Shown here: positions 2,684 through 6,466 of the stretch, piece after piece
Position numbering within the stretch: the stretch's first letter is position 1
Layout of the letters: the number at the start of each line of letters is the position of its first letter
Virus record (IMG/VR): IMGVR_UViG_3300037418_002116
Length of the DNA stretch: 64,000 nt
Origin: a virus
Lineage: Duplodnaviria; Caudoviricetes
Reading direction: 5' to 3' (one strand)
Position numbers and translations under genes: made by a program
The notes under the pieces: generated by a model
The model's input: only the letters and a program-made list of their open reading frames with translations
The model's database searches: none
Told to the model about the DNA's origin: nothing

Positions 2684-2760
2684 TGGTCTGGATGGTTCGA
2701 TTTGAACGAACGGCCCCCGCATTCCAAGTGCGGTACTCTACCAGACTGAGCTACACCCAG
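2684..2760 (-). tRNA. tRNA-Pro(TGG), A37 variant
   Basis: Cloverleaf: acceptor CTGGGTG/CATCCAG, anticodon arm CCGCA-CTTGGAA-TGCGG, TTCAAAT T-loop, encoded CCA. Confidence 0.93.
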
Positions 2761-2776
2761 ATAGACCAAAAATAAG

Positions 2777-2854
2777 TGGTCGGAACGGCAAGATTCGAAC
2801 TTGCGACACTCCTGTACCCAAAACAGGCGGGATACCAGACTTCCCTACGCTCCG
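2777..2854 (-). tRNA. tRNA-Pro(TGG), G37 variant
   Basis: Cloverleaf: acceptor CGGAGCG/CGTTCCG, anticodon arm CCTGT-TTTGGGT-ACAGG, TTCGAAT T-loop, encoded CCA. Confidence 0.93.
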
Positions 2855-4779: not shown

Positions 4780-4932
4780 CTAACAAAGACCGCCGCATGG
4801 AACGCCAGCCATTTCAGCGGTGAAAAATAACAGAAAATAAAATGAAAATGGTAAAGTGATAACAAAAACTAGAAGAGCTAAGAAGATTGTCCAACATAGA
4901 CATACAAGAGCAATGTGGAATACATTCTTCAT
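4780..4932 (-). CDS. Small hydrophobic membrane protein (50 aa)
   Basis: MKNVFHIALVCLCWTIFLALLVFVITLPFSFYFLLFFTAEMAGVPCGGLC*; TGATG overlap with the upstream stop. Confidence 0.55.
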   Translation of the reverse strand: MKNVFHIALVCLCWTIFLALLVFVITLPFSFYFLLFFTAEMAGVPCGGLC

Positions 4933-5636
4933 CAACATTCACCACATATTGTTTCTATGCAAATCATGTTCGATGGATTGGAAATCTTCGATTCAACGCC
5001 ATTCTTGTTGACGACAATCGTAAAAATTTCTGTCTTGCGGGAATCGACTACGGCCTTAAATTCTTTGATCGTGCCGTGTTCAAGCTCCATGCCGGAACCG
5101 TATCGAGCATTGATGTACAGAACCTTGTCGCCAACATCCAAACGGTTGCCGTCAATATCGTATTGATTCGGTGCTTTTAGAGCTTCGGCCTTGGCGGCTT
5201 TGTGATCAAAGAGAGCCCACACGGTCGGGCCGGTATAATTCGGTAGGAAAACTACATCTCTGTCAGGAAGATTGACCTGAACTTGGTTCTTACGTTTGAT
5301 ATCGGCCCAAGTGGCAATCGTATAGAAACGATCATTTTGGATAAAATATGGTGCGTCTCTATTCCAGCCATTGTAACGACGAATAACTCTCGCCTTTTCG
5401 GCAGCATTGTCACCAAATGTCTTACGATTTGGAATAACTTTGGCGATTGCGTCCTTTCGATCACCATCAATCCATTTGATGTATAGAGTATCTTCTAGCA
5501 ACTTGTCGATTAATGTATGTTGTGCTAGAATATATTCTACTACCTTTGGATCATTTTCATCGGCAAACCCATTATAATATGGTGATTTTAGTTGAAATTC
5601 ATCTGGTAGTTGCAGTTTTACGCTCATATTGTTCAC
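4932..5636 (-). CDS. Hypothetical protein
   Basis: 234-aa ORF in the operon. Confidence 0.75.
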   Translation of the reverse strand: MNNMSVKLQLPDEFQLKSPYYNGFADENDPKVVEYILAQHTLIDKLLEDTLYIKWIDGDRKDAIAKVIPNRKTFGDNAAEKARVIRRYNGWNRDAPYFIQNDRFYTIATWADIKRKNQVQVNLPDRDVVFLPNYTGPTVWALFDHKAAKAEALKAPNQYDIDGNRLDVGDKVLYINARYGSGMELEHGTIKEFKAVVDSRKTEIFTIVVNKNGVESKISNPSNMICIETICGEC

Positions 5637-5802: not shown

Positions 5803-6005
5803 TTGCAATTCTTTGCTGCAAGATCATTATTTAAATCGGAGTATGATCGTGTTACGACCACAGAATTTCCATCATAAAAAATATGTGAACTAGAGCCTCC
5901 ATGCACAGGATAAATGGCGTTAATGGAGTTTGTATTGATGGTGACTTGTGTATCGTTGTTTGTAGTCAGAATCAAAAATTGTGGTGCAAAAATTTGTGCA
6001 GCCAT
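5799..6005 (-). CDS. Hypothetical protein
   Basis: 68-aa ORF right after the tRNA-like RNA. Confidence 0.65.
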   Translation of the reverse strand: MAAQIFAPQFLILTTNNDTQVTINTNSINAIYPVHGGSSSHIFYDGNSVVVTRSYSDLNNDLAAKNCK

Positions 6006-6026: not shown

Positions 6027-6158
6027 TGGTGATAGAGGCGGGAATCGAACACCGCTTGGGAGCTTTCCTAGACTTTATCCGGAATATTGCGCTAGTACTT
6101 ACTTGATCCGCCGTCACCCCATTATCTTAGGGCCGCTGTACCAATCAGCTACTCTATC
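6027..6158 (-). ncRNA. 132-nt tRNA-like RNA with about 61-nt expanded variable region
   Basis: Acceptor GATAGAG/CTCTATC + A + CCA; D-arm GCTG-ATTGGTA-CAGC; T-arm GCGG(T)G-TTCGATT-CCCGC; imperfect arm GCCCT-AAGATAA-TGGGG; long insertion before the T-arm. Confidence 0.8.
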
Positions 6159-6170
6159 ATTTTAGAAAAT

Positions 6171-6247
6171 TGGCTCTAGCCGCAGGGATCGAACCTGCCA
6201 TGTACAAGTTAACAGCTTGTCCCGTCCACCCTGTTCGGCTGGCTAGA
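6171..6247 (-). tRNA. tRNA-Asn(GTT)
   Basis: Acceptor TCTAGCC/GGCTAGA, anticodon arm ACAAG-CTGTTAA-CTTGT, encoded CCA. Confidence 0.93.
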
Positions 6248-6307
6248 AAAACAGGAAGAAGGCGTTAGCGAACCCGGTTCGGCAACTTCCTGTGGGTAAT
6301 AATACTG

Positions 6308-6336
6308 AATGTATGTTATTTAGACACGAATGTCAA
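6308..6336 (-). promoter_or_regulatory. sigma70-type promoter with embedded late-like CTAAATA
   Basis: TTGACA (6331-6336), 17-nt spacer, TACATT (6308-6313); CTAAATA at 6317-6323. Confidence 0.7.
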
Positions 6337-6352: not shown

Positions 6353-6466
6353 AGAGGCGAATATTTCAGCATCGGACGCTATGCCTAGCTTATTTCATCG
6401 CCTCTAGGTGAAAGTGAGACAACATCGTGTCAGCATCGGCACTTTGCCTAGCTATCCCGTCGTCTC
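6353..6466 (-). ncRNA. Tandem duplicated structured RNA motif ending in a terminator-like U-tract
   Basis: Two hairpins (6353-6405, 6416-6466) share identical cores AGCTAGGCA and CCGATGCTGA but have different, each complementary, outer stems; U-run follows the distal copy. Confidence 0.65.

What the first reader, a model, noticed from the sequence alone, without database searches (positions are those of the whole stretch)
6027..6158. 132-nt tRNA-like RNA with a giant variable region
Seen: a perfect 7-bp acceptor stem with A73 and encoded CCA, a normal D-arm, and a T-arm with a bulged U. The anticodon arm is degenerate (A32/A33, GAU, mismatched stem), and about 61 nt sit where about 5 are expected. 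It lies directly downstream of tRNA-Asn in the same transcript. Established: T4 encodes stable RNAs of unknown function (species 1/RnaC, species 2/RnaD) in its tRNA cluster. Inference: a processed, possibly aminoacylated tRNA mimic, for example a decoy for anticodon nucleases or tRNA-sensing defence, or a scaffold RNA.
Basis: partly seen in the sequence, partly recalled or inferred. Interest (0 to 1): 0.75.

Follow-up and report, generated by a model that had tools for sequence, protein, structure and literature searches.

The report
Five-armed tRNA-shaped phage RNA
An uncultured soil T4-like phage and five relatives carry, right after their asparagine tRNA gene, a conserved 132-base RNA gene that keeps the outer shape of a tRNA but cannot read codons and bears a 60-base folded extra arm; it is most likely a tRNA-processed carrier for a binding arm whose partner is unknown.

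Summary
Window 6158..6027 (minus strand) has a 7-bp acceptor stem, A73, encoded CCA, a normal D arm, a T arm with a bulged U, and 60 nt where a variable loop should be. ARAGORN and Rfam do not call it.

It is not chance and not a decaying gene. I found five homologues in related metagenomic phages, each directly after tRNA-Asn. On the six-sequence alignment, 96.6% of the proposed pairs hold and 8 pairs show compensatory double changes (0 of 500 shuffles reach this). The element is 90-95% identical where the flanking genes are 66-84% identical.

The 60 nt form a real extra arm:
- a 5-bp helix that is replaced wholesale between lineages yet stays paired;
- invariant flanks (GGAUCAAG, then AGUA opposite GAA);
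- an 18-nt apical loop with invariant GAUAAA.

The hairpin at the anticodon position has an A where U33 should be. Its 6-8-nt loop closes to 5-6 nt in five of the six members, so it does not decode.

It is not detectably homologous to T4 rnaC/rnaD, tmRNA or any Rfam family. My best reading is a tRNA-matured, non-decoding scaffold or decoy RNA.

The parts
6027..6158 (-). Whole five-armed tRNA-shaped RNA gene (132 nt)
   Evidence: Sequence read. Homologues in L004, L011, L036, L037 and L001 (alignment A4). Structure test.
6152..6158 (-). Acceptor stem, 5' strand (columns 1-7)
   Evidence: Seven perfect pairs with 6031-6037. Kept in 5 of 6 members. L001 keeps 6 pairs, shifted outward by one.
6135..6149 (-). 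D arm (4-bp stem, 7-nt loop with GG)
   Evidence: The inner pair occurs as G-C, A-U, U-A and G.U in different members, and all cells pair.
6116..6133 (-). Hairpin at the anticodon-arm position; loop AAGAUAAU here
   Evidence: The stem is 100% paired in six sequences. The loop is 8, 7 or 6 nt in different members and never has U33. A32-U38 can pair.
6056..6115 (-). 60-nt extra arm in the variable-region position
   Evidence: Internal structure supported.
6096..6109 (-). Nearly invariant 14-nt strand of the internal loop (GGAUCAAG..AGUA)
   Evidence: 12 of these 14 columns are invariant in six sequences. AGUA opposite GAA (6065-6067) fits the loop-E / bulged-G pattern; that is an inference from the sequence pattern only.
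6068..6095 (-). Helix 5 (6091-6095 pairs with 6068-6072) closing an 18-nt apical loop (6073-6090) with invariant AAUA and GAUAAA
   Evidence: 4 of the 5 pairs change on both sides and 96.7% of cells pair. RNAalifold recovers the helix de novo.
6061..6063 (-). Helix 4, 3' strand (GCU), pairs with 6110-6112 (GGC)
   Evidence: All 18 cells pair, with one double change and three one-sided changes. This is weaker than helix 5. An alternative pairing of 6108-6111 with the T-stem 3' strand is not excluded.
6038..6055 (-). T arm (5 pairs, one bulged U, loop UUCGAUU)
   Evidence: Two pairs change on both sides in L001 (C-G to U-A, G-C to U-A). The bulge is U in four members, C in L036 and absent in L001.
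6027..6037 (-). Acceptor stem 3' strand, A73, encoded CCA
   Evidence: ACCA is invariant in six sequences.
6171..6247 (-). tRNA-Asn(GUU), always directly upstream of the element
   Evidence: ARAGORN. A tRNA-Asn or its 3' end directly precedes all six elements.
6308..6336 (-). Promoter-like site TTGACA-17-TACATT upstream of the pair
   Evidence: Consensus scan, 10 of 12 matches. Not evidence of function. Relatives have TTGACA boxes at the same place.

Best explanation
The element is a functional, non-decoding, tRNA-derived RNA with five arms.

Shown:
- It keeps the parts of a tRNA that maturation and tRNA-binding enzymes read. These are the 7-bp acceptor stem with ACCA, the T arm, the D arm with GG, and a hairpin in the anticodon-arm position.
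- All of these are maintained by compensatory change.
- The anticodon-position loop varies in length, lacks U33 and can close to 5-6 nt in five of the six members.
- A 60-nt extra arm has a sequence-free but always-paired helix, with invariant loop sequences.

Inferred:
- The RNA is made as a dimeric precursor with tRNA-Asn from an early-type promoter.
- RNase P and 3' trimming cut it out like a tRNA, and its tRNA shape makes it stable.
- The working part is the extra arm: the AGUA/GAA internal loop, GGAUCAAG and the GAUAAA loop. It binds a protein or RNA partner.
- In this reading the tRNA body is a natural 'tRNA scaffold', and the RNA acts as a decoy or sponge rather than as an adaptor.

A weak hint is that the partner recognises tRNA-Ile. 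GAUA occurs in both loops, and A73, U12-A23 and C29-G41 are present.
For: Homologues
- Six members exist. Three of them were found independently by model R1, which was built from the other three: L011 by the model search at 129.9 bits, E 1.8e-33, and L036 and L037 by reading the sequence.
- There is one copy per genome and no other copy in the window.

Structure
- 29 pairs were tested, 96.6% of cells pair, and 8 pairs have double changes.
- 0 of 500 shuffles reach any measure. Controls with partners slid by 1-3 columns give 34-59% paired.
- Helix 5 is CUAG/CUAG in the window and L004, UUAG/CUAA in L001, AACGU/ACGUU in L011 and L037, and AACGG/CCGUU in L036.

Selection
- The window and L011 are identical outside columns 64-91 except for one loop base.
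- Over the same pair the neighbouring DUF7205 gene is 65.6% identical in DNA and the 200 nt downstream are 54.9% identical.

Not a decoder
- Loops are AAGAUAU (four members), AAGAUAAU (window) and ACAGAA (L001). The model-constrained fold closes the first five loops to 5-6 nt.
- The complete relative genome G001 has its own normal tRNA-Ile(GAU).

Other
- Ile identity elements are taken from PMC9976931.
- Irregular five-stem tRNA-like genes that are not used in translation are reported from soil metagenomes (PMC5389517).
Against: - There is no expression, end-mapping or charging data.
- The single-sequence fold is not unusually stable (z = 0). The tested model is 6-12 kcal/mol above the free MFE in the five members that fit the alignment register, and about 19 kcal/mol above it in L001.
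- No partner is identified.
- Three syntenic relatives (L006, L007, L008) lack the element, so it is dispensable for the wider lineage.
- The Ile link is weak. R1's best ordinary-tRNA hits are tRNA-Ile only in G003. Elsewhere they are tRNA-Trp, Thr or Ala. Pair 4:69 is A-U, not C-G.
- L001 has a shifted acceptor stem with a U.C mismatch.
- L037 changes A to G in the GAA strand, which does not fit a strict loop-E motif.
Confidence: 0.5

Rival explanations
1. It is a working isoleucine tRNA (anticodon GAU) that merely carries a giant variable arm, at least in the four members with a 7-nt loop.
For: - GAU sits at the right place in a 7-nt loop AAGAUAU in L004, L011, L036 and L037.
- A73, U12-A23 and C29-G41 match E. 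coli isoleucine identity elements (PMC9976931).
- CCA is encoded.
- R1's best ordinary-tRNA hits in G003 are two tRNA-Ile genes.
Against: - Position 33 is A in every member.
- A32 and U38 form a Watson-Crick pair that closes the loop to 5 nt.
- The loop is 8 nt in the window and 6 nt (ACAGAA, no GAU) in L001.
- G001 already has a canonical tRNA-Ile(GAU).
- RF00005 and ARAGORN reject the element.
Confidence: 0.08
2. It acts in cis. It is a tRNA-shaped processing and stability signal that lets RNase P and other tRNA nucleases cut the early transcript between tRNA-Asn and the downstream small ORFs. The released RNA itself has no job.
For: - It lies 12 nt after tRNA-Asn and 21 nt before the next start codon (6005) on one strand, behind a promoter-like site.
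- It is always paired with tRNA-Asn.
Against: - A plain tRNA, or tRNA-Asn itself, would do this job. L007 and L008 have the same operon with only tRNA-Asn.
- This reading does not explain the invariant loop sequences and the covarying helix of the 60-nt arm.
Confidence: 0.15
3. It is a decaying tRNA pseudogene disrupted by a 60-nt insertion.
For: - tRNA finders reject it, the anticodon loop is degenerate and the T stem has a bulge.
- It is absent from some relatives.
- The W-L001 identity of the element (76.9%) is no higher than that of the flanking gene (74.4%).
Against: - 8 compensatory pairs and 96.6% pairing across six sequences.
- 104 of the 132 positions are identical between the window and L011, although the flanks are 55-66% identical.
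Confidence: 0.04
4. The 60 nt are an intervening sequence that is spliced out to give a normal tRNA.
For: The insertion is discrete and structured.
Against: - No intron family is matched at E<=10.
- 60 nt is far below the size of known bacterial and phage self-splicing tRNA introns (group I; from my own knowledge).
- The site is the variable region, not the anticodon loop.
- The product would still have a non-decoding loop.
Confidence: 0.03
5. It is the counterpart (true homologue) of T4 species 1 / species 2 RNA (rnaC / rnaD).
For: - It has the same kind of place, directly after a tRNA in a T4-like phage.
- T4 rnaC ends in a T-arm-like hairpin inside a terminal stem and folds very stably (z = -4.6).
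- The functions of both T4 RNAs are unknown (PMC3014915, PMC9697503).
Against: - Model R1 matches four T4 tRNAs at E<=10 but neither rnaC nor rnaD.
- blastn gives no similarity.
- The long arm of rnaC sits at the 5' side, not in the variable region.
Confidence: 0.05

Closest known systems
T4 RNA C (species 1) and RNA D (species 2)
   Same: - Small non-coding RNA genes placed directly after a tRNA gene in a T4-type phage.
- rnaC has a terminal stem plus a T-arm-like hairpin.
- Function unknown.
   Different: - No detectable sequence or covariance-model similarity.
- rnaC has no D arm with GG in the tRNA position.
- Its long arm is not in the variable region.
Class II tRNAs, and the allo-tRNA-like 'irregular tRNAs' with possible five-stem junctions from soil metagenomes (Mukai et al., PMC5389517; review PMC7609411)
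   Same: - An extra arm emerges between the anticodon arm and the T arm.
- Soil origin.
- Some of those RNAs are inactive in translation and were proposed to be regulatory.
   Different: - The arm here is 60 nt with two helices and an 18-nt loop, against a single short hairpin.
- The acceptor/T layout is 7/5, not 8/4 or 9/3.
- The loop is not an anticodon loop.
- The gene is phage-borne and paired with tRNA-Asn.
tmRNA tRNA-like domain
   Same: An acceptor stem with ACCA and a T arm enclose a large non-tRNA insert. tmRNA is matured by tRNA enzymes.
   Different: - ARAGORN finds no tmRNA.
- Pair 3:70 is U-A, not G.U.
- A full D arm and an anticodon-position hairpin are present.
- There is no tag reading frame, and the element is only 132 nt.
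Engineered 'tRNA scaffold' for expressing structured RNAs (Ponchon and Dardel design; recalled from my own knowledge, not checked here)
   Same: A tRNA body is used to obtain correct processing and nuclease resistance for a foreign structured RNA.
   Different: It is man-made, and the cargo replaces the anticodon arm. Here the arm sits in the variable region and the anticodon-position hairpin is kept.
Phage tRNA-Ile(UAU) genes with an extra arm showing a GAU loop
   Same: The extra arm is in the variable region and its loop carries GAUAA. The body has isoleucine-like marks.
   Different: - Those RNAs are 93-102 nt, with a true UAU anticodon loop and a 7-nt second loop.
- Here no loop is anticodon-like, and the arm is three times longer.

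Membership tests
Canonical tRNA (Rfam RF00005 / ARAGORN) | 7-bp acceptor stem, discriminator, CCA end | tested here: met
   Conserved in 5 of 6 members; shifted by one pair in L001.
Canonical tRNA (Rfam RF00005 / ARAGORN) | D arm with G18 G19 and T arm with a UUCRAUU loop | tested here: met
   The T stem has a one-base bulge in 5 of 6 members.
Canonical tRNA (Rfam RF00005 / ARAGORN) | 5-bp anticodon stem with a 7-nt loop, U33 and an unpaired 32/38 | tested here: not met
   Loops are 8, 7 or 6 nt. Position 33 is A (C in L001), never U. A32-U38 pair in five of six members.
Canonical tRNA (Rfam RF00005 / ARAGORN) | Variable region of 4-5 nt, or a short single hairpin | tested here: not met
   60 nt with two helices.
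Canonical tRNA (Rfam RF00005 / ARAGORN) | Recognised by the family model | tested here: not met
   No RF00005 match at E<=10 or E<=1. Not among 27 RF00005 hits in G001. ARAGORN silent.
allo-tRNA (Mukai et al. 2017) | 12-bp acceptor branch in 8/4 or 9/3 layout with a long variable arm | tested here: not met
   The layout is 7/5. Definition taken from PMC5389517.
tmRNA | G3.U70, tag reading frame, detection by ARAGORN | tested here: not met
   Pair 3:70 is U-A. No tmRNA is called.
T4 rnaC / rnaD | Sequence and structure similarity to the T4 genes | tested here: not met
   R1 searched over the T4 tRNA region hits tRNAs only.
T4 rnaC / rnaD | Stable RNA accumulating in infection | not testable with these tools
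Intron-containing tRNA | Match to a self-splicing intron family, and a canonical tRNA after removal | tested here: not met
   No intron family at E<=10. The remaining loop is not an anticodon loop.
Phage tRNA-Ile(UAU) with GAU-displaying extra arm (scan notes) | UAU anticodon loop, plus a second hairpin with a 7-nt GAU loop | tested here: not met
   No UAU loop. The extra-arm loop is 18 nt. Only the GAUAA string is shared.

The most novel reading that the evidence does not exclude
This is a natural 'tRNA scaffold' used by a phage. A tRNA-Ile-derived body secures tRNA-type maturation and stability. The conserved extra arm (loop-E-like AGUA/GAA motif, GGAUCAAG, GAUAAA loop) captures a host factor that normally reads tRNA-Ile or tRNA shape. 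Candidates are IleRS, a position-34/37 modifier, or a tRNA-directed defence nuclease. That would make it a new class of RNA-based host-takeover or anti-defence agent.
Probability: 0.2. Interest if true: 0.85.

Novelty: new variant of a known kind. Interest (0 to 1): 0.62.

Why it matters
Phage tRNA clusters have long been known to hold stable RNAs of unknown role. T4 RNA C and RNA D have been unexplained for 50 years. Recent work shows that phage tRNAs can counter tRNA-cleaving defences.

This element is a clean, small and testable case.
- It has a tRNA body that is clearly under selection but cannot decode.
- It has a separate arm in which the stem is free to vary and the loops are frozen. 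That is the signature of a binding module.

If its partner were found, it would show what such tRNA look-alikes are for. It would also provide a natural design for tRNA-scaffolded RNAs.

The finding also shows that standard tRNA finders miss this class. The same group of phages holds at least two further oversized tRNA-like genes.

Tried and rejected
Homologue searches that found little or nothing
- blastn of the locus against 50,697 phage records matched only a tRNA-Asn in Sinorhizobium phage Phosso.
- Pattern scans:
  - the exact 24-mer in viral contigs gave 0 hits;
  - one scan failed because the machine was busy;
  - one scan was wasted by a wrong gap range that I set;
  - the corrected patterns found only the L001 contig in viral contigs;
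  - Metagenome contigs gave nothing, and genome contigs gave nothing.
- The 68-aa ORF downstream has no homologues in the protein search.
- The contigs carrying the window's own protein, and those of P0017 and P0007, could not be read because the files were too large.

Ideas tested and rejected
- Internal tandem duplication of the tRNA as the origin of the insert. The local self-alignment is no better than shuffles. The resemblance of columns 43-58 to a variable loop plus T-arm 5' half was seen by eye only.
- A repeated or mobile 60-nt element. There is no second copy in the window.
- Helices 44-46/86-88 and 49-52/76-79 from the three-sequence alifold. The L011, L036 and L037 sequences contradict them.
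- The alifold alternative that pairs the D-arm 5' side with GGAUCAAGU. It is contradicted by the D-stem covariation; pair 13:54 breaks in two members.
- Two R1 hits in G004 and G006 that looked like long tRNA-like genes. They are two adjacent tRNA-Gly genes and an ordinary class II tRNA-Tyr.
- A frameshifted capsid gene upstream as a sign of assembly error. The pieces are separate small genes, also present in relatives.

Full report
**What is in the sequence**

The feature lies on the minus strand. Read 5' to 3' from 6158 to 6027, it has these parts:
- a perfect 7-bp acceptor stem (GAUAGAG / CUCUAUC), then A73 and an encoded CCA;
- U8 and A9;
- a 4-bp D stem with the loop AUUGGUA;
- a hairpin where the anticodon arm should be;
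- 60 nt (6115..6056) where a 4-5-nt variable loop is expected;
- a T arm, GCGG(U)G-UUCGAUU-CCCGC, with one bulged U.

The 'mismatched' anticodon stem disappears if the stem is drawn one base further. It is then G.U, three C-G pairs and U.G, with an 8-nt loop, or 6 bp with a 6-nt loop.

ARAGORN calls six tRNAs in the window, including tRNA-Asn(GUU) at 6247..6171, 12 nt upstream on the same strand. It does not call this element. Rfam gives nothing here at gathering threshold, at E<=10 on the local region, or at E<=1 on the whole window. The single-sequence fold is no better than shuffled sequence (z = 0.0). By itself the sequence proves nothing.

**Context**

The window is part of an uncultured T4-like phage.
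- Pfam finds Gp23-type capsid domains, family B DNA polymerase, DnaB-type helicase, a RecA/UvsX-type protein, the gp44 clamp loader, ribonucleotide reductase, ThyX and an ATP-dependent DNA ligase.
- No whole genome is held. The protein index shows a contig of 261 kb.
- Genes run on the minus strand.
- Upstream of tRNA-Asn there is a TTGACA-17-TACATT promoter-like site (6336..6308) and a hairpin followed by a U run (6293..6247).
- The next ORF starts 21 nt after the CCA, at 6005.

Co-transcription of tRNA-Asn, the element and the small ORFs is a reasonable inference. It is not shown.

**Homologues**

Nucleotide searches in phage records and pattern scans were nearly empty. The neighbouring DUF7205 gene (5636..4932) has 74 protein relatives. 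Fetching their contigs gave five more copies of the element, each directly after a tRNA-Asn or its 3' end:
- L004/L005, 94.7% identical to the window;
- L001, from a complete 196-kb IMG/VR genome, 76.7% identical;
- L011, found by my covariance model at 129.9 bits, E 1.8e-33;
- L036 and L037.

Three other syntenic relatives (L006, L007, L008) keep tRNA-Asn but have no element. In L008 the small ORF follows the tRNA directly. In L006 a GIY-YIG endonuclease gene sits there. The model finds one copy per genome and no second copy in the window. It finds none in ten further related viral contigs.

**Structure test**

On the six-sequence alignment A4 I tested a named structure, given here in alignment columns:
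- acceptor 1-7 / 122-128;
- D stem 10-13 / 21-24;
- anticodon-position stem 26-30 / 39-43;
- helix 4, 47-49 / 96-98;
- helix 5, 64-68 / 87-91;
- T stem 104-107 and 109 / 117-121.

The results were:
- 96.6% of the 174 cells form standard pairs, and 8 of 29 pairs show changes on both sides;
- none of 500 column shuffles reaches any of the five measures;
- sliding the 3' partners by 1-3 columns drops pairing to 34-59%;
- the inner D-stem pair occurs as G-C, A-U, U-A and G.U;
- two T-stem pairs switch to U-A in L001.

Helix 5 is the clearest case. It is CUAG/CUAG in the window and L004, UUAG/CUAA in L001, AACGU/ACGUU in L011 and L037, and AACGG/CCGUU in L036. RNAalifold recovers helix 5, the T arm and the acceptor stem without guidance.

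The only irregular member is L001. Its acceptor helix is shifted outward by one pair and has a U.C mismatch.

**Selection**

Outside columns 64-91, the window and L011 differ by a single loop base. The comparison with flanking DNA is as follows.

| Pair | Element | DUF7205 gene | Ligase gene | 200 nt downstream |
|---|---|---|---|---|
| Window vs L011 | 90.3% | 65.6% | 84.0% | 54.9% |
| Window vs L004 | 94.7% | 75.3% | 76.3% | 58.9% |
| Window vs L001 | 76.9% | 74.4% | not compared | 51.9% |

For the window and L001 there is no excess conservation of the element over the flanking gene. Together with the compensatory changes, this rules out a decaying pseudogene. It also shows that the element's history is partly uncoupled from its flanks. 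The upstream tRNA-Asn itself has been swapped: it is 77 nt and class I in the window, and 86-92 nt with an extra arm in the relatives.

**Anatomy of the extra arm**

The arm reads as follows, from the anticodon-position hairpin to the T arm:
- three linker bases;
- helix 4 (3 bp; supported by one double and three one-sided changes, so tentative);
- a 14-nt strand, GGAUCAAG-NN-AGUA, with 12 invariant positions;
- helix 5;
- an 18-nt apical loop with invariant AAUA, C and GAUAAA;
- the other half of helix 5;
- G-R-A-A;
- the other half of helix 4;
- CCCAW.

AGUA immediately 5' of helix 5 and GAA immediately 3' of it match the loop-E / bulged-G (sarcin-ricin type) pattern. This is an inference from sequence only, and the A-to-G change in L037 does not fit it well.

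UAUU (columns 73-76) can pair with the apical GAUA. It can also pair with GAUA in the loop of the anticodon-position hairpin. Nothing varies at these positions, so neither pairing can be tested.

GGCGG (columns 47-51) could also pair with the 3' strand of the T stem (columns 118-122). I cannot exclude such an alternative state.

**Why it is not a decoder**

- The loop of the anticodon-position hairpin is AAGAUAU in four members, AAGAUAAU in the window and ACAGAA in L001.
- Position 33 is never U.
- In five members the first and last loop bases form an A-U pair, which closes the loop to 5-6 nt.
- The complete relative genome G001 carries a normal tRNA-Ile(GAU) among 27 tRNA hits, and RF00005 does not score the element there.

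The body has some isoleucine-like marks: GAU, A73, U12-A23 and C29-G41. The E. coli identity set is taken from PMC9976931. In one related phage (G003) the best ordinary-tRNA matches of my model are tRNA-Ile(UAU) and tRNA-Ile(GAU). In other genomes the best matches are Trp, Thr or Ala, and pair 4:69 is A-U. Isoleucine ancestry is therefore only a hint.

**Comparison with what is known**

- **T4 rnaC and rnaD.** They lie directly after tRNA-Arg. rnaC has a T-arm-like hairpin and a very stable fold, and both are still of unknown function. My model does not match them, although it matches T4 tRNAs in the same stretch. The relation is one of kind, not membership.
- **tmRNA.** Excluded: no ARAGORN call, U3-A70, and no tag frame.
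- **Allo-tRNAs.** Excluded by the 7/5 layout. Mukai et al. do describe irregular, possibly five-stem tRNA-like genes from soil that do not work in translation (PMC5389517; PMC7609411).
- **Earlier notes of this scan (unchecked AI notes).** They describe phage tRNA-shaped RNAs with swappable extra arms, and tRNA-Ile(UAU) genes whose extra arm shows a GAU loop. I tested the second idea here. The element shares only the GAUAA string, not the UAU loop or the 7-nt second loop. This scan has thus seen the general theme before on other DNA, but not this family.

**Verdict**

This is a real, selected, non-decoding tRNA-shaped RNA gene with a structured 60-nt arm. It forms a small family of six known members in soil T4-like phages.

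The mechanism I commit to, at about even odds, is this. The RNA is released from a tRNA-Asn-element precursor by tRNA-processing enzymes. The tRNA body gives it stability. It then acts in trans through the invariant loops of the extra arm as a binding scaffold or decoy. The partner, any aminoacylation and even expression are untested.

Noticed in passing
window 6171-6247 (-); L001:3358-3449, L004:3476-3567, L008:3578-3663, L011:2529-2614: The window's tRNA-Asn(GUU) is called by ARAGORN but gets no RF00005 match even at E<=10. At the same site the relatives carry an 86-92-nt tRNA-Asn(GUU) with G73 and a class-II-like extra hairpin ending in a GAAA loop. The tRNA-Asn has therefore been swapped between close relatives.
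   Followed up: partly
L001:3270-3357, L004:3395-3475, L011:2440-2528: A conserved structured leader of about 70 nt lies directly upstream of tRNA-Asn (GGUGAGGGAGUCCGUUUAAACCCUAA...CCCCUAAACCGGA). It has a compensatory helix, GAUCGC/GCGGUC in L001 against GAUGGC/GCCAUC in L004. L001:3100-3620 gave no Rfam match at E<=1 for this leader. It is absent from the window.
   Followed up: partly
L001:3195-3290, L006:3130-3215, L008:3478-3570: A second conserved leader module lies between a TTGACA promoter box and tRNA-Asn (AACUGGUAGAGCCUGAACGA...GCCGAGGUAACAAGCAUCGCCAGAGUCACA). There is no Rfam match at gathering threshold. It is absent from the window.
   Followed up: no
window 6247-6293 (-): An 8-bp stem (ACAGGAAG/CUUCCUGU) with an inner hairpin, followed by a U run, lies between the promoter-like site and tRNA-Asn. 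It looks like an attenuator or terminator placed before the tRNA pair.
   Followed up: no
window 6353-6466: Two adjacent hairpins of about 50 nt have identical inner strands and different but paired outer stems, downstream of the Tat-signal mini-capsid genes.
   Followed up: no
L062:1501-1607 (-) = G001:18240-18346: A second oversized tRNA-like gene (107 nt) in the complete relative genome. It has a perfect acceptor stem, A73, CCA and a class-II-type D arm. Its anticodon-position loop is CGGGAUG without U33, and its variable region is about 40 nt. RF00005 scores it at 39.8 bits, and ARAGORN does not call it.
   Followed up: partly
L034:1501-1627 (-) = G003:195753-195879: A 127-nt tRNA-like gene next to tRNA-Arg in a 350-kb phage. 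It has a normal acceptor stem, D arm and T arm and a hairpin with the loop CUCAUAA (CAU). About 45 extra nt sit between the D arm and that hairpin. ARAGORN does not call it.
   Followed up: partly
L006:3351-4004: A GIY-YIG homing-endonuclease-like gene occupies the place after tRNA-Asn where the element sits in other relatives. This spot appears to be an insertion hot spot.
   Followed up: no
window 2711-2833 (-): There is a weak YrlA (Y RNA-like) match of 30.5 bits (cut-off 69) across the two tandem tRNA-Pro genes. It is most likely an artefact of two adjacent tRNAs.
   Followed up: no
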